This document shows positions 22,710-55,881 of a stretch of 64,000 nucleotides of DNA, one piece after another; within the stretch, counting starts at the first letter, position 1; each line of letters opens with the position of its first letter. A program made the position numbers and the translations under genes. The DNA is from a bacterium (GTDB lineage: Bacteria; Armatimonadota; UBA5829), in contig JAJFTD010000123.1 of NCBI GenBank assembly GCA_021373255.1, positions 2,351-66,350 of the forward strand, in the 5' to 3' direction. Below the pieces are notes generated by a model. That model searched no databases and was not told where the DNA came from. It worked only from the letters and a program-made list of their open reading frames with translations.

Positions 22710-24641
22710 TTAGAAGCTCAGAGCACTAAATTCTACTCGCAGCCGCTTTTGTGATTGCGACCAGATCAGCCGACCCTCTTGCCTGCCGATTGCTTTAGCA
22801 AGAGCAACCTCTGCATCAGTGTAGTCGAAGAGCGGCGACTTCTGATACGTCCCCAGTAGTTGCAGCCGCCAGGAACGCATAAACGTGTAACCGAAGTCGG
22901 CAAATGCACTTATACTTCGATCATTGAGTCCGTAGATGGTCGTCAAATGCGTATCCCATTTGAGCGATGGGCGTAGACTCAGGTCCGCGCTGATTCTCTG
23001 ATCATTGTAGCCCCGAGCAGCATTTGCCCAGGAATAGGTGTAGTTCAATCCGAGCGAGCCTATATCACCCAAGCCGCGATAATAGCCTGCATTTGCATAC
23101 AGAGATGTGCCCGGAGAGCTGCCGCCCCAATCACGGGCGACGGTCAGGCTTGTGTTCAGGTTAGAGTTTGGGCCAAATTGCAGAGGCTTGCCATAGAATT
23201 GCATACCCAAGCCGGTGCCGGTTCTGCTGCCATTATTGGATACGGAATTCTGGTAGCTTGCCCGTGTGCTGAATGCATAAGTAACAGCGTTGCTTATCAG
23301 AGGTTTGGGGCGCGATTGGAGATATGCGCGACTGGAATAGGTGCCATCGTAATTTCTCCTCTTGTTGCCAATGAAGTTCAACGAGAATGTATAGTCACCC
23401 ATCGACCGGCTGTAGTCCATGTTGCCGTAGATATTCTCATGCGAGGGAAAGTCCAGGTAAGTGAACACCTGCGAATCCGCATTAAGCTGCTGCCTATGGT
23501 TCCACCGCAGGCCCCAATCGCTGGTAGCGAGCTGATCGAGAGTAATAGCACCCTCGGAAGAACTGCCGATATTGTAATCCTGCTGCATATCTACCTGCCA
23601 CCCCGGACGCCCGGAGTAGTATCCCCACCCCGTAGGCTCGGAATGCTTTATCCTAAACGAGCCGGTGCCATTAGGGGTAAGCGAATAGTAGATAGGCAAA
23701 TCCACACGCACACCATCAGAGCCGTAAGTAATCATCTGGTTGGCTCCAGTGGCCGTGCCCTTCAGCGGGACTACATGCAGCGGTATGCTGAGGACCTTAT
23801 CACCTTCCATGTAGAGGTTGGCATGCTTTATCTTAACCTCTTCGCCGGGGTGGATCAGAATACTTTTTGCCCGAATGAAGACGTTAGCTTCAGCGATAGC
23901 CTCAAAATCAAATGTGAGCTTTTCGTCGGGTTCTTCATCAGGTTGCACAAGGAAATCCCTACCTCTGAACAACATGCGTTTCGCTCCATCTTCGGCTGGA
24001 GTGATAAGCACGCCTTTCATCGAGGTGAGATCGTAGTATAATGCGCTGGCTTCAACTTTTTTGTCATCACGGCTGATAATGATGTTGTCCCCACCCATCC
24101 GCGCCCGCGCGCGAAGGATGTTCTTACGGACATCAATCTGTGCCTCTTCGGCCTGTATGTCAAGCCCCCGGTTGTAGATCTTCACCCCACCTGCAGAATC
24201 AACTATCTGTTTGCCGACATCATACCCGAGGTGTTTGTCCGAAGACACGGAGATAAACGACTCATCAAACATCTCCGTGCCTGGGGCAAGGAAGTCTACA
24301 CGAAGCTGCGCAACAGCCCGGCCGTTCGCCGCAACCGCAGAAACCAGAGCCGTGCCGACAGTCGTGTCGCTCCGAAGCCTGGCTCGCGCCACACCCGCAA
24401 CGGTGCGCACGTTGGTTTCAATGATTCCGAGGCTTGTGGTAAACGTTACGAGGGTATCATCCGCTACAGGGTGGCCCGATTCATCGCGGACCTCGGCTGT
24501 GATTGTTGTACTGCTAAGCGAATCGGCAACTATCGCCTGGGGCTGAGCCCTGAGCCAAAGAGAGTAATCGTTTACTGCAGCCTGGGACGCCATGCAAAAG
24601 GTGAGTATAGCAACTATTACAACTAGCTGTTTAATACGCAT
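22710..24641 (-). CDS. LptD/OstA-like outer-membrane beta-barrel protein with an N-terminal Ig-like (Big_1-type) domain
   Basis: Signal peptide 'MRIKQLVVIVAILTFCMASQA'. Ig-like 'TTITAEVRDESGHPVADDTLVTFTTSLG'. OstA-like strands 'GGVKIYNRGLDIQAEEAQIDV...'. The Y/G/S/N-rich C-terminal half ends in Phe (...EFSALSF). Confidence 0.55.
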   Translation of the reverse strand: MRIKQLVVIVAILTFCMASQAAVNDYSLWLRAQPQAIVADSLSSTTITAEVRDESGHPVADDTLVTFTTSLGIIETNVRTVAGVARARLRSDTTVGTALVSAVAANGRAVAQLRVDFLAPGTEMFDESFISVSSDKHLGYDVGKQIVDSAGGVKIYNRGLDIQAEEAQIDVRKNILRARARMGGDNIIISRDDKKVEASALYYDLTSMKGVLITPAEDGAKRMLFRGRDFLVQPDEEPDEKLTFDFEAIAEANVFIRAKSILIHPGEEVKIKHANLYMEGDKVLSIPLHVVPLKGTATGANQMITYGSDGVRVDLPIYYSLTPNGTGSFRIKHSEPTGWGYYSGRPGWQVDMQQDYNIGSSSEGAITLDQLATSDWGLRWNHRQQLNADSQVFTYLDFPSHENIYGNMDYSRSMGDYTFSLNFIGNKRRNYDGTYSSRAYLQSRPKPLISNAVTYAFSTRASYQNSVSNNGSRTGTGLGMQFYGKPLQFGPNSNLNTSLTVARDWGGSSPGTSLYANAGYYRGLGDIGSLGLNYTYSWANAARGYNDQRISADLSLRPSLKWDTHLTTIYGLNDRSISAFADFGYTFMRSWRLQLLGTYQKSPLFDYTDAEVALAKAIGRQEGRLIWSQSQKRLRVEFSALSF

Positions 24642-24711
24642 TACGAATATGATACACCTCAGCCTGTACTGGGTCAAATATTCGAGCTGGCGTCACATAA
24701 AAAATCAGGCA

Positions 24712-34858: not shown

Positions 34859-34887
34859 TTGATGTAAACCAAGCGTACAAGAAGTGA

Positions 34888-40263: not shown

Positions 40264-40299
40264 AAACTACTGGACTTGTTAACAGGAACCAAACATAAA

Positions 40300-40330
40300 G
40301 GCGTGCGGAAAACTCCCGCACGCCTTATAT
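40300..40330. terminator. Bidirectional rho-independent terminator
   Basis: ggcgtgcgg aaaactc ccgcacgcc (40300-40324), flanked by aaa on one side and ttatatatt on the other, between convergent genes. Confidence 0.75.
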
Positions 40331-40380
40331 ATTCTTCTATCACCTAGAAACCTTCCGACAATCAACAAAATACTGTAGAT

Positions 40381-41067
40381 TTACTTTGCCGGCTCTTCAA
40401 TAGCAGTGGCACCGGCTTTTTCATTACTGTCTTTTCCAGATTGCTCATCGTTGATAATCTGTGTTTTCAGCTTAGCCACTGCGTCCCCAGCAGCAAGTGC
40501 GCGCATATCCTCTTCTTCTGCACTAACTGCTGATTGTGGAGTGCTTCCAGTCACCAACAATGTCTTCACTGGCTTTCCACTTCGAACGTTGACCAGTTCT
40601 ACCGCAACAGTCATCTGTGCCGTTTTCTTGGCAGAGTCAAACCGATAGTCCTCAATCGAGCCAGACATATAGAAGTCAGCTGAAAGTAACTGGGCAAGCT
40701 TAAGACACTTGGACCGATCCTCAGAGAATGGTGCGGAAACATCTTGCGTTTTGAGGCTGGCATCTTCTTTTGCACGCTTGATTGGTGCGAGCCGATCATA
40801 GAACATGTAAACCCAATACTTATTATTTCCCGAGAGCATGCTCCGAAGAGCCGATGCAATGTCTTCTCCAAAAGTATTAGGTATATTTACGCTCGCAGAT
40901 TTATCAAATGGAAATACTACAAGTGAAGACGAAGAAGTAACAGTAGCGCTCTTCTTTTTCGACTTCAATAATCCGAAAAGTGCTGCATCGGCTGACCCGA
41001 CTGCCATGGCACTAATTATGGCGATCAAGCTCAAGCTGAGCCAGAGCCGAGTTCTTCCGTTGATCAT
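40381..41067 (-). CDS. Secreted LpoB/CsgG/TolB-N-fold-like protein (228 aa), last gene of the envelope locus
   Basis: Signal peptide '...AMAVGSADA'. 'LVVFPFDKS...GEDIASALRSML...LSADFYMSGSIED...AQMTVAVELVNVRSGK' is paralogous to the N-terminus of the 605-aa protein. GGAGG RBS is present. Confidence 0.65.
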   Translation of the reverse strand: MINGRTRLWLSLSLIAIISAMAVGSADAALFGLLKSKKKSATVTSSSSLVVFPFDKSASVNIPNTFGEDIASALRSMLSGNNKYWVYMFYDRLAPIKRAKEDASLKTQDVSAPFSEDRSKCLKLAQLLSADFYMSGSIEDYRFDSAKKTAQMTVAVELVNVRSGKPVKTLLVTGSTPQSAVSAEEEDMRALAAGDAVAKLKTQIINDEQSGKDSNEKAGATAIEEPAK

Positions 41068-41113
41068 CGTAAGATAGCCTCCAAGCTTATGAATCAGTAA
41101 AAGTCAATGCGTA

Positions 41114-41137
41114 CGGTCCGAGCATTTGCTCGGACCG
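41114..41137 (-). terminator. Intercistronic hairpin (giant gene to 228-aa gene)
   Basis: cggtccgagc/gctcggaccg, a 10-bp stem with a 4-nt loop and no strong T-tract. Confidence 0.4.
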
Positions 41138-41163
41138 CGCTCTCATCAAATAAGCACCAGCAA

Positions 41164-44100
41164 CTACGGTATTGCCGGCGGTGCATCAAGTTCTTCTGCA
41201 TTCGCTGCGGGAGCCGCTAACTTTGCTCGACTCGTCAGCGAAGTAAGACCCTTATAAGTCGTATTCGGATTAATGATCAGTTCGCAATCAACGAATGTTT
41301 TGATCCAATATCCTGACCACGACTTCAATACTCGTTCTGCTCCAGCACGTGTAGCACTTACCAGAACGTATTGCTGCTGGTCAGCATCAAATCGCCAAGC
41401 ATAATCACGAATCCATCCAGCAGCACTGGCATCAGCAAGAGATTTCTCCACATTGAGGTATCTTACTTTAACCTCGCTAAATGGAATACCTGCATCTTCG
41501 TACGGAACAACGGTAGCACCAGTAGAATTCTTCCTCCAGTTGAAGAATATATTGCCGAACTGGTTCCATCCCGTATATACAGGGATCACACACGGTGCCA
41601 ATTCCGTCTGGCCCGTTACTGAATTGACCTGCGTACTGTAAGCCTTCGAATAGGCTTTGATCAGTCTGTATGTCCTATCGAATTCCAAAGGATATGTGGA
41701 ATTACCTGCAGCCAGTAATCCAGTGATATAGTCAACCTCACTTACAGACTCAGCCGGGTAATCTGTCTTCGGCTTAATCCATACAGCATCACCAGGTAGA
41801 ATTACAGGGAATGCCTGCAATCCATAACGGAAATATGCCCTGCCTCTCGGATCCCAGCGAACGATTTGCATCTTGCTGGCTCTCTCATACCCGAATATGG
41901 AACTCGGATCTGTGCCATTTATTACCATGGGCGGCGTGATCATATCAACACATGGCAAGTTAGCCGTTGCATTATTCGGCTGTGACGGATCCTTAACGGC
42001 AACTGTTCTCATAGGTCCGCCTACGGTTATCCTAACTCCATCATTCAAGCCATCATAGCTCTCATCAGTTTGAGCCTTGTCCCAGATAGAGTCGCCAGCC
42101 CAAAGCAAGCCCAAGCGCCATTCGCCACTCGTGCTTAATGTCAGGTTTTCACCCGTTATCAGAGCAGCATCGGAACCCTTAGGATAGCTGGGTATCTGGA
42201 CGTTTCCGATCCAGTAATCCGGGTCCATAAACTCATCATCAGTAAGCATTGTAACACTGGCTGTAAGTGAGAGTGATGTGGAATCAGGCTTGGTAACCTG
42301 CACCACAATATTCTCCAGCATAACATTTGAAGGCTTACTCGTTAAAGCATTTTTCGGGAACTTGATCTTTCCCTCAAGAAGCACATTTGTCCCGACTGCG
42401 GCATAAGATAGGCCCATAGCCGCAGATGGATTAGACTCATCTGCTTTTACCAGTTTTATATCATCGAAGAACGGTACCAGTAAAACCGGACCGAGCTTCA
42501 GTGATGGCGTTGCGGCAGCATCTGTACCATCTGTAGCTTCTACTGTATAGTTATGTTTTCCAATAGTAAAGCTAGTTCCAGGAACCGTTACCTTATATTC
42601 TACTCCAGCCGCGTAATTAGGTGTAGTGCCTGACACTGACCGAGTCATTACGAGCCGCTGTTGAGCAGTGGTGCCGCTATCAATTACCAGAGTTAAACCC
42701 TCTACTCTAGATGTGCCAGACATTGCTACAGGAGCATCGCCATCTGCATCCACATATGTAGCCTTGTAGGTAAATAACTGGGTAGTCTTACCAGCAGCTG
42801 GATCAACAGTATAACTTGTTATGGTCGGCGCAGCATTATGGTCTCTTACAACCAAATTATCTTCATATAAAGGATCAGCATATTGATAGCCATCATAGGC
42901 TTCAAATGCAACTGTATAACTTCCTGGAGCAAGACCTGTCTTCTCGGCATTGAAAACAGCGCCGGTCGCATAAACAGGGTTGGCATCCTTCGGAGTCATC
43001 TTTATGATTATCTCTGCAGGAGTCGCGCCAGCCCTTATTAATCTAACATAAACTTGAGGCGTCGGCGCATTCGTTACAGACCCGTCATAGTCGCGATATG
43101 TAACCGTAAACTTGAACGTTGTTGCAGTCTGTCCGGAGAACGGCTGCATAGTCTGGCTCGTTAGTGTCGGCTTGTAGTTTACCTTCAGAGAGTAATCACC
43201 GGCAGACGTAGCTGGGAATCTGACCTTGTGGTCCGGATCGTAGCCATCCGATGCCTCGAAGTGATAATAATGATTACCCTCAGGCAAGCTAGTCTGCTTA
43301 ACCTTAAGTAACACATCCTGAGTATAATCCGTCACAGGTGTCGTTACCGGATCCATTGGGATTCCAGATGTCTGGTTATCAAATACCAGCTTCACATAAC
43401 CCTGGACTCCATCATGATAACTAGGTGGATCGTTATCCGCGTCCTTATAGTTAATCCTGAATGTCAATGTATCACCGGCAAGGAATATTGTGCTTGTCGA
43501 ATGCTTGTCGAAGTAGTTCACGTATACCGGCGGCTGCACACCAGACTTCGGTACGTATTTAATATACACGCGCTTCGTTCCACTAGGAAGCGGAGTAGTC
43601 AGGGTGATCTTTGTATCATTGTCCTGTAGTGCCGGACCGCCCAGATAGTAATTTGTGTCTGTTACAGCGCAAGTCGAGGCAACATAAACACCAACAATAG
43701 AATCTATGCTATCGATCGCATCTGGAGTAACTGACAGCAGCGAACTTCCAATGTTACCGACAGTGCCGAACTGCACCATCGTAGCCGGCATCGCACCAAG
43801 AGCAGGGCTCAGACTTATCACGTTTCCTACTGTCGGATCAAACACATGTGCCGTGTCATAGTAATTTTGATCTAACGCAGTATTAGCATTGGCATTAAGG
43901 AACACCCCATTAACCTGGCGAATATTCTGCACCTCAGGAGCGGTCCAATTGCCATTAGAATCATAATTCAGCTCTACCTGTGTTGAGTCTACCACGGTAG
44001 CCATTTTCATCTTTGGACCGTAATAAAGCGATGTCTGCGCAGTATTGCTGATTACAGGTGCCTTGTTATCACTAGGCGGTGCGCTGGTAACCTTAGGACC

Positions 44101-47100
44101 CACGCCTTCGTTACCGGTCGGGTATATCACCTTATCTGAATAAGGCAGTGAGTCAATAAGCCAAGCCGGCTTATCCTGGTAACCACTACGGGCAGTAAAC
44201 AGATACTTATGATCACCAACCGCCAGCTTCGGAATAATAAGTGTATAAGTGATTCCAGCAACAGCAGTTCCATTCCCAGACGAGCGCATAAGCAATCCGT
44301 TGATCCTGAATGTTGTATCTTTCACAACATTATCGCCATTGACTCCAAGATCATCAGCTGCGATTGTGAGTGTATCCGTGCTATTACTCTGAATTAAATA
44401 TACACGATTGATTAACGGGCCAGATGTTATCTGCATCAGTTTTCCAGCGAACTGGTCCCTGGTAATTGTCGCAGCGGCACCCTTCTCATCTGTGAATGTT
44501 GCACGAAGTAAACGGAACTTATTACTTTCAAGCGGATCCGGCAGAGGAGCTTCGCTTACTTTGCCATTATAGAAATGATCCGTATTACCGTTGCAGTCGA
44601 CCCACACTCTTGGTGAACCGGAAACAGCCACTCCTGAAGCTACATCTCCAATTTTGTAAACATACGGCATATCGCCATCGGCATCCGAATAGGTAACACT
44701 ATAAGTAACGCTTGCATTAGCGGATATGCTGCCGCCAGAAGGATTGGGGCTGGCCGCGCCATCTGCAAGTTTTGGCGGGTTATTTACCCAAGGACCATCG
44801 AAGTCACGAATATCACCATCGCTGTGATCGTATTTAGGATTGTTCTTTGTATACACGTCAAAAATCGCTACCGCAGTACCATCAGAAGCCTCAAAGTGGT
44901 ATGTATGCTTGCCACTTGAGAGCGCTGTCGTTGAATATGTATAAATAGCTCCATCACGATATGCAGGCGTACCTTGAGTAGTTAACGTCATATCATATTG
45001 CTGATCATCGATTTTCACTCTTACATAAGTCGGAGCCTGTCCATTAGGACCATCCTGGTCACGATATTTGATAGTATACACATACTGTGTGGTTCTGCTA
45101 CCCTGAATAGGCGAAACAGCATCCTTCCGAACATCTACCAGTTCCAGCGTCGGAGGTGTATTGCCGCCAATTTTCACTTGCATCTTTGTGCCGAAAATAT
45201 AAGTTGCTTTTAGTTTACTGGCAGACACAGGATTAATGAAGCGAACCTTTGCATTTAAGCGGTCTATATTATAATCACCGAGTTGGTAGTAATTCGCCCA
45301 GAGTTGCGTGCTTATATCTGCACTCGGTATAGCACTAGTTAATTTCAGGCTACCGTCACCCAGGTTGTCTGGATAGCTCGTTCGTCGCGGGTCATAATAA
45401 TTTGTGCCCTCGCGCTCTGCTGACTGCCAAACGCCCAGAACACCATTCAGCGGATCATTATCGCCATCCGTTCCCTTTACATAAAACCGAAGAGGATACT
45501 GCGTCGGCAAGAATGCAGTGAGTGGATCTGGATCAATAAAACTTGGAACGCCTCTACCCTGATGCGTAAAACGGATATCGGAATACTTGATGTATACTGT
45601 ACTCCCCTCGATATTATCGCCTACCTGAGTCAACCAGATTGAGCTATCGCCACAGTTGTATCCAGATCGGAAATAAGAGATGAGCACACGATTATATCCA
45701 GATTCATCTCCATTAGCAGCAGCAATGTTGAGGTGTACCTTATTATCAGTAGGACCAAAATTGCCAGGACCAACATAAAGATTTGTTGTTGTATCATCAC
45801 CATATATATTATAAACGGCGTCAACATCACGTATTCTCGACGGATAATCGGGTATTACTGTCTTTCTGGTTTGATCAGAAGTATCGACCCAACCGTATTG
45901 CCATTCATTAGTACCGTTCCGTCCTGGTTCGACATATAGATTGCTTGAATCTAGATTGCTTGTATCGTTTCTCAGCGCCCCAATTGATGTATATACGCCC
46001 TCGACACTTGCTATCAAAGATGGATACTCAGGTACTACGACGCACTCATCAGACAGCGGGTCGGTATTAGCAATCGCATGGCCCCTCATAACAGAATAAC
46101 GACTATCAGCCGGATCAACAGTGGCGTCCTGCCACCCACCCTTTACATCGTCTAACCGGAAGAGCTCGTTTGGATTAACGCCTGCATTAATAACCTGGGC
46201 ATCATAGATCGTGCCTGCTGGTGCAGGGAGTTCATTCGATATTGGACCCACGATCGGGGCACCGGTAATCGGAACTTCAATCTTATAATTAATATCGTCC
46301 AATTTTGTCATGTCCTGATTGCGCACAACACTGGCTGAAGGAGAGGGCGCAGTAGGATCATTAGCTGGACGATATTCAGCCCAATTCACGCCATCAAATG
46401 CGACAAAGGCATAATAGTACTGTTTCGAATACTCGTGTTCAGACTCTTTGCCCTCGAGTCTCGTCTGATAGTGATATGCTACCCCATCGCTGTATACGGA
46501 ATCACCGGAATTGTCTTTGACCATATCGTGGCCCTTATCCCAAAGGATAGTCTTGCCATCAGGGTAGTCAAGGTCATTAAGTTTGCTATCAGGCTGGAGT
46601 TGGCCGATATACACCTTCATAACAGTGGGGCCCTCTTTGGCACTATCACTGTCGCTGTAGGTAACATGGAACGTCCATATAGTCGCTGAGTTGGAAGAGC
46701 CGTCAGCAGAATCGAAGCCGCCATTGGTAAGAGTTGGCGGTTTATTTTCAGTGATTGTAGGGCCTGTGAACCAACCACCAGTAACAGGTAACTTTGTTGT
46801 CTCGCCAGCCACCAGATCATTAGGGTCTGTTTGACGGCCCCAATCATCTACGAACTCGAACCTGTATTCCCATATTCCCGGCTCCATTGTTGAAAGATCC
46901 GAACTCGCCACGGTGAATTTGTAGTAGATACCATTTTTGTACACTGTGGAATTATTGTTTAAAGGATTCAACAATCCATCCGGCAACATCCTGAATTGCT
47001 TCACACTGCCAGGATTATCCTTTTTCCTGATATATAGATAGGCAGCATAAGGACGCTGACCATCTGGATCAGTATATCTAACTTTATATTCGAATCCTGT

Positions 47101-49209: not shown

Positions 49210-49258
49210 CTGGTATCTTCCTTTCAAACTCCTGTAAACCATGTAAACTACCAAACAT

Positions 49259-49285
49259 AGGGCTGCCAATAGCTGTGGCAGCCCT
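49259..49285 (-). terminator. Intercistronic hairpin (677-aa gene to giant gene)
   Basis: agggctgcca/tggcagccct, a 10-bp perfect stem with a 7-nt loop, followed on the minus strand by atgtttggtagttt. Confidence 0.5.
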
Positions 49286-49306
49286 TGCCCGTTATCCATT
49301 TATTTA

Positions 49307-51340
49307 CTAATAGCCACCCGGTAGGGAATTAACAGCACTACCAGGGAATATTGCAGGCCGGAACACCAGCGTCACAGGCGTCTTCGCCCTGAACCAGTAG
49401 CCCCGCCATGGAACGAGAAGTGTATCGTTAGTGCTTAGACTGTCGTAAGCAGATCTATCTGAATTCCAGGCAAATACAGTACGGCTAACTAAGCCCTGAG
49501 CCACAGCTTGATCGAAGGATACGGTCAAGTTAGTCGCGCTATTATATACCTGCAACTGGCCAATATAAATCGGGTATACTAACGGGTTTCCAACCATGTT
49601 CCAGCCAGTTACCAAGTTAGTTGTTTGCTGGATACTCTGCTTTCCATACTCTTCTCCAACAATAGCTGCATCCGTGGCAATGTCGTAAGTCTTACTCGAT
49701 CCCATAGATAAGCTATAAACAGCCATCCAGAAAGCTTTGCCCGACTCAAACTGCGTTATGGGAACATAATTCTGCGTTCCCGAAGAATCATAATACAATG
49801 CACTATAGTATCCAGCGTTAATTCCAAATACATGGCTGATTGATGGATTGTTAAATGTAAATGGAACGCTCATCAACTGATAGCCATAACGCATAGCAGC
49901 TTTCTTTGCCGCAGGCACGATTATCTTTCTGCCTACAATCTGCTGCCACCCACTAGTATCACGGAACAATACATAGTAGACTAACTCCCCAGCCGCTTCT
50001 CCGTTTGCTTCAACCTGCCACTCTACCGGAGTAGATTCGGAATTGATCGGTACATTGCCGATTTCCTGAATACTGGTAGAATTAGTGCCCTCTGCAAGTT
50101 GCAAACCCTTCGGGAGGTAAAGATATGCAGTTACATTTTGCAAATCATAAGGACCTGGGTCCGTATCGGTATTATAAAGATATGCCTTGATCGTAAACGG
50201 CGAAGGCATCATTTGCGTCACACCAGTCGTGGAATCATACTGCAGTGAGTTTGGTCCTTGCACAGCTGCAGCAATGCTATCCTGACGAATCTTCGTACCC
50301 GACCTATAAGTCCACAACGTAGTAGCAACCGCATTACCAAAATAGGTAACATAAGTACGAGATATATGCGAAGCAAGAGCAACTTGCTTCCACTCCACCA
50401 TATATGCAAGGTCGTCTATAGGAACCATAGGATCGGGAACATAGTTATTTGGAAGATTATCCGCAGGATCCGTTAACCACGTACTCAGTGTAGCTAGATT
50501 ATCTAATTCGCCGATAGCAATAAAATCAGGTGACGTACAGTCCTGCTCACGAAGCGTTATGCGTGTACGTGTCACCGGGCTATCAACACTATCGTAGATC
50601 TCAAACATCGAAGGAATCTTGCTCCCAGCAAATGTATTGCCTGCGAACTGATCCGGCAATCCAGGAGTTCGCGCAAGTCCAGACCCGGTTACAAATGGGT
50701 AACCTGCTTTATCGGTATCTTCAACCACAGCATCTAGGTACAAGGAGATACCGGCTTTAACTAACTGAAGAGATGCATTGGTAACTGTATATTCAAAGCG
50801 TACCTGGTCACGCACCAGACTTATATGAACTCTAACAGTCACTGTTCCACTGCTGTCGGTCCAATCACCCTCTATATATGGGCCGCCTATACCACGCCCA
50901 TAACCAGACATTGGTACATCATAAACCCTCGGATATTTCGTCCAACTGCCCATTGTAGGGTCACCGACTACTAATGGAGAATTATCCCCTATCTTAACTC
51001 GAGAATAATTCCAGTGACCACAAATAACCGGCGGTCTCCAAACCAACCATTGATTATCATCATCAGTAGTTTCAGGATCGCCAACACGATTACTGATACC
51101 ATATCGACCACCAACCTGGAAGACTTCACCGTCGATATCAGAAATCATCTCACCCCAAACACCAAATTCAAACTCTACGTATTTATTCGAAAGTGTAATC
51201 ACATATGGGGGATTATCAGGATTAGGATGCATTGGATCAGGCGGTTCATATAAATGGTATTGTGCGATTGCAGGAACCGCCAGCAATATCGCAAATGCGA
51301 TCACAACAATCAATCTTAAGATAGCCCTCTTATAAGTCAT
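49307..51340 (-). CDS. Secreted hypothetical protein (677 aa) with a CARDB-like segment and the shared C-terminal domain
   Basis: ATG at 51340 has an upstream GGAGGAG, giving the signal peptide 'MTYKRAILRLIVVIAFAILLAVPAIA'. 'YLYLPKGLQLAEG...VEWQVEANG' is CARDB/S-layer-like. C-terminal motifs are 'GWNMVGNP' and 'WRGYWFR'. Confidence 0.85.
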   Translation of the reverse strand: MTYKRAILRLIVVIAFAILLAVPAIAQYHLYEPPDPMHPNPDNPPYVITLSNKYVEFEFGVWGEMISDIDGEVFQVGGRYGISNRVGDPETTDDDNQWLVWRPPVICGHWNYSRVKIGDNSPLVVGDPTMGSWTKYPRVYDVPMSGYGRGIGGPYIEGDWTDSSGTVTVRVHISLVRDQVRFEYTVTNASLQLVKAGISLYLDAVVEDTDKAGYPFVTGSGLARTPGLPDQFAGNTFAGSKIPSMFEIYDSVDSPVTRTRITLREQDCTSPDFIAIGELDNLATLSTWLTDPADNLPNNYVPDPMVPIDDLAYMVEWKQVALASHISRTYVTYFGNAVATTLWTYRSGTKIRQDSIAAAVQGPNSLQYDSTTGVTQMMPSPFTIKAYLYNTDTDPGPYDLQNVTAYLYLPKGLQLAEGTNSTSIQEIGNVPINSESTPVEWQVEANGEAAGELVYYVLFRDTSGWQQIVGRKIIVPAAKKAAMRYGYQLMSVPFTFNNPSISHVFGINAGYYSALYYDSSGTQNYVPITQFESGKAFWMAVYSLSMGSSKTYDIATDAAIVGEEYGKQSIQQTTNLVTGWNMVGNPLVYPIYIGQLQVYNSATNLTVSFDQAVAQGLVSRTVFAWNSDRSAYDSLSTNDTLLVPWRGYWFRAKTPVTLVFRPAIFPGSAVNSLPGGY

Positions 51341-51511
51341 CTCAGAAGTCTCCTCCAAGCAAATCGGGTATTATACTGTTATGGATTCCGCAGCGAACAT
51401 CCCGACACCAGCCGTCAGCGGATATCATTATTATTTTCCAGCTCACGTCATTGAAAGCCAGATAAGAATACCACTCGTAAGCGATACTCTTATCTTATCA
51501 ATCCCTATGTG

Positions 51512-53845
51512 CTAGAATATCGTCATCACAAGGGAATCAGTAGATTTGACTCCGCCCACATAAGTCTTAAGCCAATAGCCGTGATACGGCTGCAGCAGTT
51601 CCTGCTTGTTCACTATCTTGTAGCCCGGCGTGGGCGTAGTCGAGTATGAATAAACCGCCGGAGAAACCCATCCAGCCGTTACAGCATCGGCAAAAGACTT
51701 GACCTGCCCCTTGTAGGAAAACAGCGCGTTCCACCAGGAAGTTTCTCGATTATATGGGTTGCCGATCATATTCCAACCCTGGTATAGATAAATATTAAAG
51801 GCATTATCAGTCGGAGTAAGGTAGTGTTCTGTATTGAAGCTGTCATTAACGACTGCATCCTGCTGTAGAACCAACCAGAAGCCGGTACCCGCTGGGTAAG
51901 AATATATATTGGTCGTACCCTCTGTATAATAACCGCCACCGGTATACCAATAATAGCGTGTTGTCGGATCCAACGAATCAGGCATCCAATCTTGAGGATT
52001 GGACCACGCCAGCCAGTCCTGCGGATATGTATAATACGGAATCGTCCGGGTGGTCGATGTCTTCGGCAGCCAACGGAACAGCCTGGCTTTGGTCGAACCA
52101 GCAGAAGAAAAGTTGACAGGAAGGCCATTGCTTGTCTGTAATAAAGTCTCAGGAAATACTGATACTAAGTTACTAGAAGCTGTACTCGTAAATTGATACG
52201 GGAATGCAACCAGATGAATACCAGCAGAGAATGTCACACTTGCGACCGTAAACTGTGCCCAATCGTAAACGTTTGAACCATCAGCTTTAGATTCAGCGGT
52301 AGCATAGACCTCATGGCTGCCGGCTCCCAATGGGCTATCTGTATTTACTAGTGGCCAAGTGAAAGCTACAGCGGTTCGATTAGTATTCAAATAGCTATTT
52401 ACATTTGTGCTATCAAGGATAACATACGTGTCATCATCCAGATTGTCTGGAATTCCATCCTCATTAGTGTCAGGATAATCCAAGTAAACCTTTAATGTAG
52501 ATGTCTCAATTCCTTTTATAGCAATCTTGAACTCAGGAGTGCTTCGAACACTACTGCCCTTAACCGGCTGTTGAATCCTGAGACTCGCCGATGATAATGA
52601 AGCCGCCACATCCAGTATTCCAGCACCATACGTGGTAGTATCAAGCATAAGACCACTGGGCGCTCTAGCTGTGCTAATCAATTGGCTCCTAACCTGAGAT
52701 GCAGGCACCCCAGCGCTCATCAGCAAAGCTGCTGCGCCAGAAACATGGGGGGCAGCCATCGATGTGCCTTGATAGGATTCATAGTTATATGACGTTTTGC
52801 CCTCAGCGTCCCAGTTAATAATAGTGCTGTATATGCCACCGTCATCACCGAGGCTCAGATCACCACCAGGAGCTGCAATCTCAATCTTACCGTAATTGGA
52901 GTAATATGCTATATCTTCATAGGGTCCTAAAGCCGACACTGCGATGACTTCAGCCCAGTTAGAAGGAAAGTGCGAATAACTTGTGCTGTCATTACCAGCA
53001 GCACCAACCAGAATTATACCGGCGTCATTAAGTTCCTGTATCTTCGCGTGCTCAATCGAGTCATCGTAATAATTACCATAACTCATATTTACGACATCAG
53101 CACCATTCAACATCGCATAATCAAGGCCGCGAACAATCATATCAGTAGTGCCGCCAAGCGGGCCCAATACTCTAACAGGAAGGATCTTTACGTTATCCCA
53201 GCAGACACCAACCACACCCATGCCATTGTTGCCTTGGGCAGCTATCGTGCCAGCAACGTGGGTGCCATGAGAGGAACCTTCGCCGCTATTTACAGGCATT
53301 GGGTCTGAGTCATCATCAACACAGTCGTAGCCATCAAGAAGTCTGTCTCCCAAATCCGGGTGCGGAGCCACACCGGTGTCATTAACAGCTACGATAATAT
53401 CCGAATTGCCTTTCGCGGTATCCCACGCAGCAGGCATATTGATCATCCGCATTCCCCACAGCTTATCCCAATAAGTATCATTAGGTACTGCGCAGGGGTA
53501 GTTCATATAATTCGGTTGGATGTGATCGATAACCCACTTCACGGGCTGGGAAGAGGTAGCAAAGCGAGTAGGTGTCCGAGCATACGACCCAGTCAGCCGA
53601 ATCTGGTAGGTATTATCTACAGGGAGCACTCTAACAATGCCGGCACCCATCCTACTGACCAACTGCTCAACTGTTGAATAGCTCGTTCCAGGCTGCACAT
53701 GAATAATATACTCATTAGGTACATACTGAACATTGCCGGTATCGGCACTCGCCACAACTGCAGCAGTTAGCCACAAACTCATCAGCATCAGAAAGGTAAT
53801 GCCGGTGAGTAATATCCTCTTTGACCGACGCACGCGCGGTTCCAT
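51512..53845 (-). CDS. Subtilisin-like serine protease (peptidase S8) with I9-like propeptide and the shared C-terminal domain
   Basis: Triad contexts are 'AVNDTGV' (Asp), 'HGTHVAGTIAA' (His) and 'GTSMAAPHVSGAAALL' (Ser). A signal peptide is present, and the C-terminus carries 'GWNMIGNP' and 'YHGYWLK'. Confidence 0.92.
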   Translation of the reverse strand: MEPRVRRSKRILLTGITFLMLMSLWLTAAVVASADTGNVQYVPNEYIIHVQPGTSYSTVEQLVSRMGAGIVRVLPVDNTYQIRLTGSYARTPTRFATSSQPVKWVIDHIQPNYMNYPCAVPNDTYWDKLWGMRMINMPAAWDTAKGNSDIIVAVNDTGVAPHPDLGDRLLDGYDCVDDDSDPMPVNSGEGSSHGTHVAGTIAAQGNNGMGVVGVCWDNVKILPVRVLGPLGGTTDMIVRGLDYAMLNGADVVNMSYGNYYDDSIEHAKIQELNDAGIILVGAAGNDSTSYSHFPSNWAEVIAVSALGPYEDIAYYSNYGKIEIAAPGGDLSLGDDGGIYSTIINWDAEGKTSYNYESYQGTSMAAPHVSGAAALLMSAGVPASQVRSQLISTARAPSGLMLDTTTYGAGILDVAASLSSASLRIQQPVKGSSVRSTPEFKIAIKGIETSTLKVYLDYPDTNEDGIPDNLDDDTYVILDSTNVNSYLNTNRTAVAFTWPLVNTDSPLGAGSHEVYATAESKADGSNVYDWAQFTVASVTFSAGIHLVAFPYQFTSTASSNLVSVFPETLLQTSNGLPVNFSSAGSTKARLFRWLPKTSTTRTIPYYTYPQDWLAWSNPQDWMPDSLDPTTRYYWYTGGGYYTEGTTNIYSYPAGTGFWLVLQQDAVVNDSFNTEHYLTPTDNAFNIYLYQGWNMIGNPYNRETSWWNALFSYKGQVKSFADAVTAGWVSPAVYSYSTTPTPGYKIVNKQELLQPYHGYWLKTYVGGVKSTDSLVMTIF

Positions 53846-53992
53846 TCGTCGTTCCTCCTCCTAGACCAAACCTTGTCGCATATATCCTTACGACAAGTAA
53901 ATGCATCGAGCGATATAACCTGCCCGAAGCATAGTATTTGACGGTAGCTACTCTGCGGATGAAACACATTAGTGTCTTTCCCAGCTATATCT

Positions 53993-54020
53993 GCTTCGGG
54001 GTGGGTGACCGCCCCGAAGC
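53993..54020 (-). terminator. Intercistronic hairpin (605-aa gene to S8 gene)
   Basis: gcttcgggg/ccccgaagc, a 9-bp stem with a 10-nt loop and no T-tract. Confidence 0.4.
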
Positions 54021-54063
54021 GTATGTAGTCTACTCTGTCAATTTAGTCAAATCACGTCACAGT

Positions 54064-55881
54064 TTATAGATTAGGCGCAGGCGGGAGCCCACTAATCACG
54101 AACCTGTTCTCTTCTCCCTGAACCCAAGCCTGGCTTGTATCGGAAATATGCCTGCAATAAACTGTCCACTTCATAACTTTTTCCGAATAGTTAGCTAGTG
54201 TAGCAGCAAGGCTAATACGCTGAGCTGCAGGCAGTGAGATGGTCGGGTTAGTTTCGTATATTGGGCTGGACATATTGTTCCAACTCGGAGCTGATCCCGG
54301 AATTACAGGCTCAACTTTCACATAGTAGATGTCTGCCCCATCCTTGCGATTCCACTGCAAGTTTGTGATGCCCTGCTGAAGATCACTTATCTGAATCTCA
54401 GGAGCCGGCTCGCTAGCAACATAGGCCGGCGAAACAACATCCTGATTCCGAACTGGCTCTATAGCCGTAGCCACTATGGTGTTACTAACCGGCGTATAAT
54501 AATATTTTTCAGTATCGGATGATGTATCATCATCGTCAGTGGTCGAATCGTCGTCATCATCTTCATCAGTGCCAGTCACAACCTTATAAAGCACCCTGAC
54601 CTGATACGAGTGGGTAGTGCCGTAGGGTTCTGAAGCTAACTTATAACTCGCAGGACTGTAGCTTGTGGCTGGATTACTGGCAATCGTGAGGTAGTTAACT
54701 GTGACATCCCCACTGACACCGTAGATATCCTTGATGGTGGTCTTGCCCAAGTCCCAAGCTGTAGTCGGATCAAGAACTTTCACAGGGCGAGCGCCCTCAT
54801 CGAAGCTGTCTCTTAAAATCTGGAGTTGCAGCACATTAGTTCCATGCCCTAGCTTGCTGGGATCCCAACTAACCTGCGCCTGATCACTGGCGCCAATGTT
54901 CAATGCATCTTCTGAACCGCGGCCGGATTTGAACAACGATGCCAAACCGAAGACAATACCAGCGCCTAACAGGAATTTACCTATCTTGCTGATGGTTCCC
55001 TTGTGGGCCTTACCAGCCGCTGGAGCTCCAGTGGGAAGTGGGGCCGACGCAGCCGAACCGCCCAAATTTGGCATATCAAAGATAGCCCTGGCTTTGTCCT
55101 CGGGCTGAATGCCTCGCATGGACTTGATCACCTTGGCTTCGCTGTCGTTAGGGGAAACTGTGCGGATATCAATATAACCAATGATCTCTTTGTTCCGCAA
55201 AACGATCATTCGCATTCCAGGCTTTAGGCCATCGCGCACACCCTTGTTCAACATAACCTGGTCTTCGCCGATATTCATCTGAATAGTGGCCTCTGGAATT
55301 ACATAGTCCACCATTGTTTTCACGGCGAGGAATGCGGCATTGTTCACAGCCTCAACGATAAGTGCATCATCATCAGGAGCATATCCAACTCTTGCGCTGG
55401 ATGTACCAGTTTGAACAGCGCCGTTGAGGATCTCGCCCGAAGCCTGATCGATCATCTGAACGGCGAGCGTAACCGTGGCGCGCCTGGTAGCACCTGAACC
55501 CGCCAGTTGGACGGATTTGATGGCACCCTCAAGCATTGCATCCGCGCTAAGAGCCTCTCCTAATCTCACTAAGCCGATCTTGGAAAGCGGCATATGAAGG
55601 TCGAGTTTCTCCATCTCAGACTTAATCTGAGTCCGGGTGATGCTTACATCATACCGGCTAGTCTTGCTCATCTCCACGACTACTGCATCAGTCGCGAGCC
55701 TTGCAAGCAAATCGCCCTGTACTCCGGACTCGTTGACAAACTCAACGACTCCCACGGAATAAGTGGGCATAAGCTGCGCTCTGGCCGGTGACAGCGGCAC
55801 GGGCGCTATGGTGGATACGAGCGCTATGATGAGCGCGTAGCATATGCTCCTCACAGCCCTGCATTGCATTAGCTGCCTCAA
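54064..55881 (-). CDS. Multidomain envelope protein (605 aa): LpoB/CsgG-fold-like domain, TM segment, acidic linker and Ig/FN3-like domains
   Basis: TTG start has GGAGG 10 nt upstream. 'YSVGVVEFVNESG...LSADAMLEGAIKSV...ATVTLAVQMIDQASGE', internal TM 'FLLGAGIVFGLASLF', and 'DEDDDDDSTTDDDDTSSD'. Confidence 0.8.
   Translation of the reverse strand: MRQLMQCRAVRSICYALIIALVSTIAPVPLSPARAQLMPTYSVGVVEFVNESGVQGDLLARLATDAVVVEMSKTSRYDVSITRTQIKSEMEKLDLHMPLSKIGLVRLGEALSADAMLEGAIKSVQLAGSGATRRATVTLAVQMIDQASGEILNGAVQTGTSSARVGYAPDDDALIVEAVNNAAFLAVKTMVDYVIPEATIQMNIGEDQVMLNKGVRDGLKPGMRMIVLRNKEIIGYIDIRTVSPNDSEAKVIKSMRGIQPEDKARAIFDMPNLGGSAASAPLPTGAPAAGKAHKGTISKIGKFLLGAGIVFGLASLFKSGRGSEDALNIGASDQAQVSWDPSKLGHGTNVLQLQILRDSFDEGARPVKVLDPTTAWDLGKTTIKDIYGVSGDVTVNYLTIASNPATSYSPASYKLASEPYGTTHSYQVRVLYKVVTGTDEDDDDDSTTDDDDTSSDTEKYYYTPVSNTIVATAIEPVRNQDVVSPAYVASEPAPEIQISDLQQGITNLQWNRKDGADIYYVKVEPVIPGSAPSWNNMSSPIYETNPTISLPAAQRISLAATLANYSEKVMKWTVYCRHISDTSQAWVQGEENRFVISGLPPAPNL

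What the first reader, a model, noticed from the sequence alone, without database searches (positions are those of the whole stretch)
40381..55881. Five-gene envelope locus with no assignable secretion or sorting system: giant repeat protein, subtilase, and two LpoB/CsgG-fold-like paralogues at its ends
Five same-strand genes occupy 15.5 kb, encoding proteins of 605 aa, 777 aa (S8 protease), 677 aa, about 2681 aa and 228 aa. The four intergenic gaps of about 100-220 nt were inspected and a hairpin was found in each. Every product has a signal peptide or membrane anchor. The proteins are tied together by shared modules. A C-terminal domain of about 200-260 aa is common to the giant protein, the 677-aa protein and the protease. 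A 'YxFxAxDG' module occurs in both the giant protein and the protease. A TolB-N/LpoB/CsgG-like module occurs in the first and last gene products. I see none of the usual cargo signatures: no T9SS CTD, PEP-CTERM, LPXTG, SLH, RTX/T1SS, autotransporter barrel or TpsB partner. My inference is a self-contained surface-structure or adhesin assembly system. In it the dedicated subtilase would process proteins bearing the shared C-terminal domain, and the LpoB-like proteins would provide outer-membrane anchoring.
Basis: partly seen in the sequence, partly recalled or inferred. Interest (0 to 1): 0.8.

Follow-up and report, generated by a model that had tools for sequence, protein, structure and literature searches.

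The report
Conserved Armatimonadota envelope gene cluster
The five genes are a real cluster, conserved across the little-studied phylum Armatimonadota, that encodes exported proteins sharing an uncharacterised C-terminal domain; in relatives that domain sits just before a type IX-secretion-like sorting tail, and the cluster has a sixth, LptD-like outer-membrane gene that lies 15.7 kb away in this genome.

Summary
The observation largely holds. There are five minus-strand genes (605, 777, 677, 2681 and 228 aa), each starting with a signal-peptide-like segment. A hairpin sits in every gap. A shared ~200-aa C-terminal domain is found in the protease, the 677-aa protein and the giant (HMM E 4e-30 to 5e-54). 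The first and last products are LpoB/CsgG-fold paralogues. One claim fails: the giant's 'FxAxDG' module (9 copies) is not detectably present in the protease.

The order g1-S8-g3-[giant]-[g5] recurs across Armatimonadota classes, usually between coaE and uvrB. It is followed by a sixth gene, an LptD-like beta-barrel protein. In this window that gene lies at 22710-24677.

The shared domain is an internal duplication with no Pfam or NCBIfam family and no solved relative. It is not a sorting signal in its own right. In 77 of 104 relatives a middle domain and a FlgD-Ig domain follow it. In four FCB-group proteins tested the tail is a genuine T9SS type A CTD. The window lineage has lost that tail.

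I read the locus as an unrecognised envelope surface-protein system. The shared domain would act as a common docking module. The function itself is inferred, not shown.

The parts
54064..55881 (-). g1, 605 aa. Layout: signal peptide (conserved AxA-Q site), LpoB/CsgG/PelC-fold domain (~aa 40-195), MreC-like beta-barrel (~aa 200-270), linker, Gly-rich hydrophobic helix (aa 300-317), two Fn3-like domains assigned from sequence patterns only, and a C-terminal PPxxP motif. It is the most conserved member of the cluster.
   Evidence: It has 123 homologues, the full-length ones mostly 35-69% identical. Of 24 scanned, 17 hit LpoB, 10 hit CsgG (best 3.3e-10) and 12 hit the MreC barrel.
54931..54984 (-). 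Moderately hydrophobic Gly-rich segment of g1 (IGKFLLGAGIVFGLASLF). It may span a membrane; its topology is unresolved.
   Evidence: Mean Kyte-Doolittle hydropathy is about 1.59 over 19 aa (my arithmetic), just under the 1.6 threshold used. The segment stays hydrophobic across the family.
51512..53845 (-). g2, 777 aa. Layout: signal peptide, fervidolysin-like propeptide, S8 subtilase (aa 148-396; D156, H193, N285, S362), a region of unassigned fold (~aa 430-530), then the shared domain.
51557..52240 (-). Shared 'GWN' domain copy in g2 (aa 536-763).
   Evidence: E 3.9e-30.
49307..51340 (-). g3, 677 aa. Layout: signal peptide, galactose-mutarotase-like beta-supersandwich (~aa 45-335), Ig-like domain, then the shared domain. 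It is the cargo present in the most lineages.
   Evidence: pLDDT 83.8, pTM 0.81; YidC P1 domain, GH94 N-terminal domain, polysaccharide lyase, OpgD; probability 1.0, TM up to 0.55 relative to the target.
49310..49906 (-). Shared 'GWN' domain copy in g3. It is an all-beta, two-lobed domain formed by an internal duplication of a ~90-aa unit.
   Evidence: 5.3e-54; pLDDT 89.5, pTM 0.86; best PDB match E 0.01, TM <= 0.26; no PDB sequence match; hhalign of the two halves: 97.3% probability, E 2e-11.
41164..49209 (-). g4, 2681 aa. Layout: signal peptide, nine ~90-aa 'FxAxDG' beta-sandwich modules, the shared domain, then a C-terminal LDAPPAIP motif. It is a lineage-specific addition to the cluster.
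   Evidence: equal to P0153; module profile matches PDB 6fhj_A residues 829-901, E 1e-6.
42514..48483 (-). Span holding the nine 'FxAxDG' repeat modules of g4 (aa 273-410, 574-668, 724-823, 862-974, 1394-1478, 1517-1710, 1940-2023, 2050-2141 and 2164-2262).
   Evidence: domain E-values 2e-15 to 6e-26.
41239..41949 (-). Shared 'GWN' domain copy in g4 (aa 2451-2687 of the ORF).
   Evidence: 4.6e-35.
40381..41067 (-). g5, 228 aa. Signal peptide plus an LpoB/PelC-fold domain, with no lipobox. It is a paralogue of the g1 N-terminal domain. Homologues in other lineages end in a hydrophobic helix that this copy lacks.
   Evidence: LpoB 26.8 bits, cutoff 22.3; best PDB sequences 5t10/5t11, E 0.04-0.05.
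53872..53897 (-). Hairpin in the g1-g2 gap (9-bp stem).
51460..51495 (-). Hairpin in the g2-g3 gap (16-bp perfect stem).
49259..49285 (-). Hairpin in the g3-g4 gap (10-bp stem, followed by TATGTTTGGT).
41115..41136 (-). Hairpin in the g4-g5 gap (9-bp core within an 11-pair stem).
40298..40326 (-). Strong intrinsic-terminator-like hairpin after g5 (13-bp stem, followed by TATGTTTGGT).
22710..24677 (-). fam2, 655 aa, the sixth conserved cluster member. Layout: signal peptide, Big_1/invasin-D3 domain, LptD-like junction region, and a C-terminal predicted beta-barrel ending in Phe. In relatives it directly follows g5 or g3. Here 15.7 kb separates it from g5, and it is still followed by uvrB.
   Evidence: present in 17 of 20 loci; LptD 7omm_A, E 2.7e-4, over the junction including the PYY..L.P motif.

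Best explanation
This is the window's copy of an Armatimonadota-wide envelope gene cluster. The ancestral order is coaE - g1 - [S8 protease] - g3 - [giant] - [g5] - LptD-like barrel - uvrB.

Three Sec-exported proteins belong to it: an active subtilase, a protein with a carbohydrate-enzyme-type beta-supersandwich, and a 2681-aa giant made of beta-sandwich repeats. All three end in the same ~200-aa two-lobed beta domain, which I call 'GWN' after its motif GWNxIGNP...GYW.

I propose that GWN is the envelope-proximal docking or pedestal module of cell-surface proteins. It would hold diverse passenger domains on the cell by binding a common envelope receptor, either an outer-membrane glycan or LPS, or the conserved partner proteins.

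Ancestrally GWN is the first part of a three-domain C-terminal cassette: GWN, a middle domain, and a FlgD-Ig domain like a T9SS CTD. Genuine T9SS substrates of the FCB group carry the same cassette. The window lineage has lost the two distal domains and keeps only GWN.

g1 and g5 are paralogous periplasmic proteins of the PelC/LpoB/CsgG fold, and neither is lipidated. Together with the LptD-like barrel (fam2) they are the conserved envelope platform next to which the cargo genes are kept.

The subtilase is a co-displayed enzyme, possibly a maturase, and is not a core component. The hairpins between genes probably act as partial terminators that set unequal expression.

Shown here: the gene structure, the domain sharing, the internal duplication, the cassette architecture in relatives, the synteny, and the fold-class assignments.

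Inferred: surface location, the docking role of GWN, any physical link between the cargo and g1, g5 or fam2, and the role of the hairpins.
For: - Domain sharing is restricted to the three cargo genes in the whole window.
- GWN always sits at the C-terminal end of very different passengers: S8, beta-propellers, FG-GAP, Ig arrays, phosphoesterase. It occurs in 8054 representative proteins at E<=1e-3.
- In 77 of 104 GWN-bearing ORFs from related loci, a tail of 208-326 aa follows (most 245-270 aa). The tail is a middle domain plus FlgD_ig (above the Pfam cutoff) in Armatimonadota, and TIGR04183 (above cutoff) in the 4 of 4 FCB proteins tested.
- The tail profile also hits the CTDs of PorU and PorZ.
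- The tail almost never occurs without GWN: 80 of 83 tail hits also carry GWN.
- A third architecture, GWN-mid-GWN, puts GWN in the place of the CTD.
- Synteny: g1 in 19, fam2 in 17 and g5 in 10 of 20 loci. Independent gene calls confirm this in L065-L068.
- g1 and g5 fold class.
- fam2's similarity to LptD covers the hallmark jellyroll-to-barrel junction.
- GWN is a confident all-beta model, weakly jelly-roll or bicupin-like, with conserved aromatic residues. That is compatible with a glycan- or protein-binding module.
- Fimbriimonas has LPS genes and T2SS, and no T9SS is listed (PMC4072686).
Against: - No localisation, binding or expression data exist.
- GWN has no significant structural relative, so a binding function is a guess.
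- GWN proteins also occur in genomes and loci without g1 or g5 nearby (Nitrospirota, Coprothermobacterota, Capsulimonadaceae). The domain therefore does not need these partners in cis.
- fam2's LptD similarity is modest: E 2.7e-4, only one of the PDB LptD sequences matched, and no Pfam or NCBIfam LptD model hit.
- If fam2 and g5 are simply the housekeeping LptD and an LptE-like partner, the adjacency may reflect a shared envelope regulon rather than a machine.
- The distal cassette was lost repeatedly (window clade, Abditibacteriota). The ancestral cassette function and the function in the window may therefore differ.
Confidence: 0.45

Rival explanations
1. There is no dedicated machine. g5 and fam2 are the lineage's LptE-like and LptD outer-membrane LPS translocon, and g1 is a periplasmic paralogue with a housekeeping envelope role. 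The protease, g3 and the giant are ordinary Sec-exported proteins that stay in the periplasm or leave through the type II secretion system, which needs no recognisable cargo signal. The shared domain is just a popular C-terminal binding module, comparable to a CBM. The genes stay together because they belong to one core-genome envelope regulon beside rpsA-coaE and uvrB.
For: - The cluster sits between housekeeping genes in several classes.
- fam2 matches LptD at the junction motif.
- Weak LptE hits occur in the g1 family (3 of 24, best 2.7e-4).
- Fimbriimonas encodes LPS synthesis and 21 T2SS genes.
- The cargo set varies between lineages: the protease, the giant and g5 are each dispensable.
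- GWN occurs widely without g1 or g5.
Against: - The g1-cargo adjacency survives across classes of a phylum in which the rest of the neighbourhood is not conserved.
- g1 and the giant share an extreme C-terminal PPxxP motif, which hints at a common partner.
- The fam2 barrel region is about 400 aa, against about 550 aa in E. coli LptD (from memory), and fam2 carries an unusual N-terminal Big_1 domain.
- No LptD or LptE curated model is matched.
Confidence: 0.3
2. The cluster is a previously unrecognised outer-membrane export and attachment pathway. The LptD-like barrel, together with rings or plugs of the PelC/LptE-fold proteins g1 and g5, would translocate or anchor cargo recognised through the GWN(-mid-FlgD-Ig) cassette. 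A cluster-encoded protease (S8, or C11 in some lineages) would play a sortase-like role analogous to PorU, possibly coupling cargo to LPS as the T9SS attachment complex does.
For: - Barrel, PelC-fold proteins, protease and cassette-bearing cargo are all encoded together.
- The cassette is homologous to that of genuine T9SS cargo, and its last domain resembles the PorU and PorZ CTDs.
- The protease itself carries the cassette, as PorU carries a CTD.
- T9SS is described as limited to Bacteroidota (PMC11611037 and PMC10994853). Armatimonadota cassette proteins would therefore need another route.
Against: - The case is entirely architectural.
- The window lineage lacks the CTD-like domain, yet it keeps g1, g5 and fam2.
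- The protease and g5 are absent in some lineages.
- Absence of T9SS genes from these genomes was not tested here.
- An LptD-type barrel has no precedent as a protein translocon.
Confidence: 0.15
3. A self-contained five-gene adhesin system in which the subtilase specifically cleaves the shared C-terminal domain of its neighbours, and the two LpoB-like proteins anchor the structure in the outer membrane.
For: - The S8 catalytic triad and the propeptide are intact.
- There is precedent for subtilases that mature giant adhesins: SphB1 acting on FhaB in Bordetella (from memory).
- The domain is shared by exactly the three non-LpoB proteins.
Against: - The protease is missing from several Fimbriimonadales loci, and two loci carry a C11 peptidase gene with no S8 domain at the g2 position.
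- The protease bears the domain itself.
- g1 and g5 have no lipobox, so they cannot be outer-membrane lipoproteins.
- The cluster is not self-contained, because the fam2 barrel is part of it.
- The giant is a late, lineage-specific addition.
Confidence: 0.1

Closest known systems
Type IX secretion (T9SS) cargo with a type A C-terminal domain (Bacteroidota and other FCB-group bacteria)
   Same: The shared domain of the window proteins is homologous to the first domain of a three-part C-terminal cassette (GWN, middle domain, Ig-like CTD). In Gracilimonas, Winogradskyella, a Bacteroidetes MAG and a Calditrichota MAG that cassette ends in a TIGR04183 CTD above cutoff. Armatimonadota orthologues end in a FlgD-Ig domain that also matches the PorU and PorZ CTDs.
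   Different: The three window proteins lack the middle domain and the CTD entirely, and no trace of either is found in six frames. T9SS is described as confined to Bacteroidota, and no T9SS gene is seen in any of the loci. The Armatimonadota terminal domain scores as FlgD_ig, and it is below cutoff for TIGR04183.
PelC-PelB, CsgG (curli, type VIII secretion) and LptE-LptD: periplasmic alpha/beta-fold proteins working with an outer-membrane barrel
   Same: g1 and g5 belong to the LpoB/CsgG/PelC/TolB-N fold class. In most relatives g5 lies directly upstream of a barrel protein whose jellyroll-to-barrel junction aligns with LptD.
   Different: g1 and g5 have no lipobox. No CsgG-type transmembrane hairpins were demonstrated. 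No curli or Pel genes are present. g1 carries extra domains: an MreC-like barrel, a hydrophobic helix and Fn3-like domains. fam2 has an N-terminal Big_1 domain and a shorter barrel, and it fails the curated LptD models.
Subtilase-containing surface complexes and adhesin maturases: dentilisin PrtP-PrcA-PrcB, T7SS mycosin, and SphB1 acting on FhaB
   Same: A secreted S8 protease is encoded next to large surface proteins. The best NCBIfam hits are mycosin and PrtP.
   Different: Scores are far below the family cutoffs (146 vs 279 bits; 92 vs 300 bits). There is no T7SS, no autotransporter barrel and no TpsB partner. The protease is dispensable in some lineages.
Giant Ig-repeat adhesins such as the BapA, LapA and SiiE classes
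   Same: g4 has a signal peptide, is very large, and holds an array of nine divergent beta-sandwich modules.
   Different: There is no RTX or T1SS signal, no LPXTG and no retention module. The repeats belong to no Pfam family. The nearest solved sequence is a module of PDB 6fhj, which from memory is a Paenibacillus xanthanase.

Membership tests
T9SS cargo (type A CTD) | C-terminal ~80-aa sorting domain matching TIGR04183 or PF18962 (or the type B or C models) | tested here: not met
   No hit at E<=0.1 in any of the five proteins. A profile of the middle domain plus Ig tail finds nothing in the window in six frames.
T9SS cargo (type A CTD) | Homology of the region upstream of the CTD to proven CTD-bearing proteins | tested here: met
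   The GWN profile hits FCB proteins whose C-termini pass TIGR04183 (L035, L048, L051, L056).
T9SS cargo (type A CTD) | The genome encodes the T9SS core (SprA/Sov, PorV, PorU, PorK-N) | not testable with these tools
   Only the 64-kb window and +/-10-kb loci were available. None of the ORFs I scanned in them matched a T9SS core family, but the ORFs were not scanned exhaustively. The literature places T9SS in Bacteroidota.
Peptidase S8 (subtilase) | PF00082 above cutoff, with Asp, His and Ser catalytic residues | tested here: met
   170.6 bits against a cutoff of 21.8. D156 (NDTG), H193 (HGTH) and S362 (GTSMA) are present, with N285 as the oxyanion residue.
T7SS mycosin / dentilisin PrtP | Equivalog model score above the curated cutoff | tested here: not met
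   TIGR03921 scores 146.1 against 278.75. NF033595 scores 92.3 against 300.
LpoB (PBP1b activator) | PF13036 above the gathering score | tested here: met
   g5 scores 26.8 against 22.3. g1 alone scores 18.9, which is below cutoff, but 17 of 24 family members hit. TIGR02722 scores 19.7 against 110.55, so g5 is not an LpoB equivalog.
LpoB / CsgG / PelC lipoproteins | Lipobox Cys for outer-membrane lipid anchoring | tested here: not met
   There is no Cys at the end of the signal peptide in g1, g5 or their homologues. A conserved AxA-Q signal peptidase I site is present instead.
CsgG (curli channel, T8SS) | PF03783 above cutoff, plus curli partner genes (csgA/B/E/F) | tested here: not met
   g5 scores 14.1 against 20.8. 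Ten of 24 g1 relatives hit CsgG (best 3.3e-10), but the window g1 does not. No curli genes are in the locus.
LptD (outer-membrane LPS translocon), for fam2 at 22710-24677 | OstA/LptD_N jellyroll plus LptD barrel models, and the junction motif | tested here: inconclusive
   The family profile hits Neisseria LptD 7omm_A at E 2.7e-4 across the junction. No Pfam or NCBIfam LptD model is hit at E<=1, and the other PDB LptD sequences are not hit.
LptE | PF04390 above cutoff; a lipoprotein | tested here: not met
   g1 scores 17.4 against 23. g5 has no hit. Three of 24 g1 relatives hit weakly. There is no lipobox.
Autotransporter / two-partner secretion / T1SS-RTX / LPXTG / PEP-CTERM / SLH | The corresponding Pfam or NCBIfam signature domain in the cargo or in a neighbour | tested here: not met
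   None is reported at E<=0.1 for the five proteins or at E<=0.001 for ten neighbouring ORFs.

The most novel reading that the evidence does not exclude
Armatimonadota may have their own outer-membrane display pathway. An LptD-like barrel (fam2), with the non-lipidated PelC/LptE-fold proteins g1 and g5, would export or anchor proteins marked by the GWN(-middle-FlgD-Ig) cassette, and a cluster-encoded protease would act as the sortase-like component. This would be an evolutionary cousin or analogue of the T9SS attachment step. It would link surface-protein display to the LPS export site in a diderm Terrabacteria phylum. It would also imply that the 'T9SS-type' cargo cassette is older and more widespread than T9SS itself.
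Probability: 0.18. Interest if true: 0.85.

Novelty: new variant of a known kind. Interest (0 to 1): 0.6.

Why it matters
Armatimonadota are a widespread diderm phylum with few cultured members, and little is known about their envelope. This cluster is one of the few gene orders kept across the phylum's classes, yet four of its six members belong to no curated family.

The shared domain occurs in more than 8000 representative proteins from metagenomes. It is missing from Pfam, NCBIfam and the PDB. It forms the conserved stem of a cassette that ends in a T9SS sorting domain in FCB-group bacteria.

Working out what the cassette binds would annotate thousands of proteins at once. Testing whether the LptD-like barrel and the PelC-fold proteins handle such cargo could show how cells anchor surface enzymes outside the known sorting systems.

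Tried and rejected
1. Rfam scan of the whole window found nothing, so the hairpins are not a known RNA family. The five hairpins have unrelated stem sequences, so they are not a repeat element.
2. Profiles of GWN, g1 and g5 against PDB sequences gave no significant hits. The only weak ones were 5t10/5t11 for g5.
3. Foldseek of the isolated GWN model against the PDB gave only insignificant bicupin and HA70 matches. Against BFVD there was one hit (E 1.8e-4, TM 0.51), to a 'putative hemin binding protein' from an uncultured marine phage contig. It was not informative.
4. A word-indexed search with the GWN profile returned only 10 fragments. The exhaustive search was needed.
5. The 'YxFxAxDG' module is not shared with the protease.
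6. A lipoprotein anchor for g1 and g5 is rejected, because neither has a lipobox.
7. Recent horizontal transfer as the cause of the GC dip (45-47% against about 52%) is judged unlikely, because the cluster is syntenic across the phylum.
8. An exact look-up of the window's own g3 in the contig index found no record.
9. Cluster look-up of the GWN-mid-GWN proteins gave no taxonomy beyond 'bacterium'.
10. Literature searches for Armatimonadota with T9SS, and for the motif strings, found nothing relevant.

Full report
**Gene structure**

The region holds five minus-strand ORFs: 54064-55881, 51512-53845, 49307-51358, 41164-49299 and 40381-41067. Database proteins identical to the window products start at the internal Met codons. 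With those starts the gaps are 218, 171, 97 and 96 nt.

Each gap folds into a stable hairpin with a stem of 9 to 16 pairs. The gap folds have z-scores from -2.4 to -3.8 against shuffles. A 13-bp terminator-like hairpin follows the last gene. The stems are unrelated in sequence, and Rfam finds nothing. I read the hairpins as partial intrinsic terminators; this is an inference.

In every product the only strongly hydrophobic window is at the N-terminus, and each has an AxA-type cleavage site.

**The individual proteins**

- g2 is an S8 subtilase (E 6e-50). It has a fervidolysin-like propeptide and the residues D156, H193 and S362. It falls far below the curated cutoffs for mycosin and dentilisin PrtP.
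- g5 passes the Pfam LpoB cutoff (26.8 vs 22.3 bits).
- g1 does not pass the LpoB cutoff on its own (18.9 bits). Among 24 diverse relatives, however, 17 hit LpoB, 10 hit CsgG (best 3.3e-10) and 12 hit the MreC beta-barrel.
- g1 and g5 align with each other at E 4e-5. Neither has a lipobox. g1 relatives share an invariant AxA-Q signal peptidase I site.
- g3 and g4 match nothing in Pfam or NCBIfam.
- The AlphaFold model of g3 (pLDDT 83.8, pTM 0.81) has three parts: a galactose-mutarotase-like beta-supersandwich, an Ig-like domain and the shared domain. The supersandwich resembles the YidC P1 domain, GH94 N-terminal domains, a polysaccharide lyase and OpgD (Foldseek probability 1.0).
- g4 contains nine copies of a ~90-aa 'FxAxDG' beta-sandwich module. 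The nearest solved sequence is a module of PDB 6fhj (E 1e-6).

**The shared C-terminal domain (GWN)**

- Pairwise BLAST support is weak. A profile built from g3 relatives finds exactly three copies in the window: g2 aa 536-763 (4e-30), g3 aa 485-683 (5e-54) and g4 aa 2451-2687 (5e-35). Nothing else is found in six frames.
- Modelled alone, the domain is a confident all-beta, two-lobed structure (pLDDT 89.5, pTM 0.86).
- Its two halves are homologous (hhalign 97.3%, E 2e-11). It is therefore a tandem duplication of a unit with the pattern G[WY][NQ]x[IV][GS]xP...Y...G[YF]W.
- It has no significant relative in the PDB by structure (best E 0.01, TM <= 0.26) or by sequence profile.
- An exhaustive profile search finds it in 8054 representative proteins at E<=1e-3 and in 2601 at E<=1e-10.

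**What follows the shared domain in relatives**

Of 104 domain-bearing ORFs in 64 related loci, 77 have a further 208-326 residues after it. This tail consists of a conserved middle domain with no known relative, followed by an Ig-like domain.

- In Armatimonadota the last domain passes Pfam FlgD_ig.
- In Gracilimonas, Winogradskyella, a Bacteroidetes MAG and a Calditrichota MAG it passes the T9SS type A sorting-domain model TIGR04183.
- The tail profile also hits the C-terminal domains of PorU (6e-4) and PorZ (8e-3).
- The tail almost never occurs without the shared domain: 80 of 83 tail hits also carry it.

Among the best 150 representatives, three architectures appear: GWN-mid-CTD, GWN-mid-GWN, and terminal GWN alone.

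The window clade (the window, L001-L003 and L065) has lost the tail from all three proteins. L004 and L005 keep it on the protease and g3. L006 keeps it on all. Abditibacteriota have also lost it.

The proteins nevertheless belong to families whose ancestral C-terminus is a T9SS-cargo-type cassette.

**Synteny**

A profile-guided scan of one genome per species returned 64 loci. In Armatimonadota of several classes (Chthonomonadales, Fimbriimonadales, Abditibacteriales and unnamed lineages), the order g1 - S8 protease - g3 - [giant] - g5 recurs.

Clustering all ORFs of 20 loci gave these counts:

| Gene | Loci (of 20) |
|---|---|
| g1 | 19 |
| fam2 | 17 |
| g5 | 10 |
| coaE | 7 |
| rpsA | 6 |

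Other points from the comparison:

- The giant occurs only in the clade near the window.
- Several Fimbriimonadales loci lack the protease and g5.
- In two loci a clostripain-type C11 peptidase gene follows g1, and the g2 position holds a protein without the S8 domain.
- Independent gene calls with precomputed Pfam hits confirm the order in four further genomes.

**The sixth gene, fam2**

fam2 encodes a ~650-aa protein placed directly after g5 or g3. In the window it lies at 22710-24677 on the same strand, 15.7 kb beyond g5, and uvrB follows it immediately. An Abditibacteriota genome has coaE-g1-g2-g3-fam2-uvrB, and the closest relative has g5-fam2 contiguous. The 15.7 kb is therefore an insertion or rearrangement specific to this lineage.

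fam2 has a signal peptide and a Big_1/invasin-D3 domain. Its C-terminal half is beta-rich and ends in a conserved aromatic residue. The family profile matches Neisseria LptD (7omm_A, E 2.7e-4) across the jellyroll-to-barrel junction, including the PYY..L.P motif. No curated LptD model and no other PDB LptD sequence is hit. I call it LptD-like with moderate confidence.

**Further ties between the members**

- g5 homologues in six lineages end in a hydrophobic helix. This is the same layout as g1: signal peptide, LpoB-like domain, linker, helix. The window's g5 has lost the helix.
- The g4 family ends in [LI][DE]xPPxxP in 11 of 11 cases. The g1 family ends in PPxxP in 83 of 109 cases under a strict pattern and 105 of 109 under a loose one. 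Other ORFs almost never do.
- If one partner reads both tails, the C-terminus of g1 must lie outside the cytoplasm, as g4's does. The hydrophobic segment of g1 would then not be a simple inner-membrane span. I could not model g1 to test this.

**Interpretation**

The evidence shows a conserved, uncharacterised envelope cluster. The cargo proteins share a C-terminal module that is the proximal part of a T9SS-cargo-like cassette.

My preferred reading (0.45) is that the module is a common docking or pedestal domain for surface display. In this reading g1, g5 and the LptD-like barrel form the conserved envelope platform, and the protease is an accessory co-displayed enzyme.

The main rival (0.3) holds that g5 and fam2 are simply the LPS translocon and that the cargo leaves through T2SS or stays periplasmic. 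Fimbriimonas has LPS and T2SS genes, and no T9SS is listed.

A genuinely new export and attachment pathway built on the LptD-like barrel is possible (0.15-0.18).

g1 and g5 lack a lipid anchor, the protease is dispensable in some lineages, and the barrel gene is left out.

T9SS is described as limited to Bacteroidota (PMC11611037 and PMC10994853). I could not scan whole Armatimonadota genomes to verify that it is absent from them.

**Novelty and interest**

I found no literature on this cluster or on the domain, and no curated family covers g3, g4, GWN, the middle domain or the non-Big_1 part of fam2. The kind of thing is familiar: surface proteins with a C-terminal anchoring cassette, encoded next to envelope accessory proteins. 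I therefore rate it a new variant of a known kind, with interest 0.6. The function rests on architecture and synteny only.

Noticed in passing
window 22710-24677 (-), with uvrB at 20618-22645 (-): An LptD-like outer-membrane protein (signal peptide, Big_1/invasin-D3 domain, LptD-like junction, barrel ending in Phe) is the conserved sixth gene of the cluster in 17 of 20 related loci. Here it is detached from g5 and still sits next to uvrB, as in an Abditibacteriota genome.
   Followed up: yes
window 24678-40380: A 15.7-kb block separates g5 from the LptD-like gene. It holds an AraC/PocR regulator (37239-38450) and several ORFs with no Pfam family (for example 696 aa at 35075-37165 and 745 aa at 28154-30391). 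The two genes are adjacent in the closest relatives (L003, L065), so this looks like a lineage-specific insertion or rearrangement.
   Followed up: partly
C-termini of g1 (window 54064-54100) and g4 (window 41164-41200); families P0022-P0141, P0153, P0211 and others: The g1 family and the giant-protein family share an extreme C-terminal proline motif. g4 relatives end in [LI][DE]xPPxxP in 11 of 11 cases. g1 relatives end in PPxxP in 83-105 of 109 cases, depending on how strict the pattern is. Some g5 homologues also end this way. No known sorting signal looks like this.
   Followed up: partly
window 40000-54000: G+C drops to 45-47.6% over g5-g2, against about 50-54% on both sides. Because the cluster is syntenic across the phylum, I attribute the drop to the Asn/Thr/Ser/Tyr-rich composition of the exported proteins and not to recent transfer. 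This was not tested.
   Followed up: no
window 40298-40326, 49259-49285 and 53872-53897: Three of the hairpins are followed by nearly the same tail (TATGTTTGGT, or GGTTTGGTCTA in one case). This may be the organism's terminator tail signature in place of a plain U-run.
   Followed up: no
L031:5378-6625 and L043:4802-6052: In two Armatimonadota loci a clostripain-family (C11) cysteine peptidase gene follows g1, and the protein in the g2 position lacks the S8 domain. The cluster thus carries a different protease type in these lineages.
   Followed up: partly
P0154-P0210 (representative proteins, unclassified 'bacterium'): A third cassette architecture, GWN - middle domain - GWN, has a second GWN at the extreme C-terminus in place of the Ig-like CTD. 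It accounts for about 47 of the best 150 hits and sits on proteins of up to 5087 aa that carry PQQ or FG-GAP passenger domains.
   Followed up: partly
L014:13748-15553, L016:13948-15792, L021:15127-16965: Another conserved ~610-aa protein with no family (fam6) follows the LptD-like gene in five loci, four of them the Fimbriimonadales-type loci that lack the protease and g5, plus L021. It is absent from the window.
   Followed up: no
window 14893-20259 (-): A 1788-aa protein combines a Peptidase_M28 domain with an FtsX-like permease C-terminal domain. A 664-aa ORF with no family lies next to it (12816-14810).
   Followed up: no
L006:2-5035, L008:1-4125, L009:2-3982, L012:2-4018, L018:1-4026, L028:3-3395: Many loci carry an additional large cassette-bearing protein (about 1100-1700 aa) immediately upstream of g1. 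The window has coaE there instead.
   Followed up: partly
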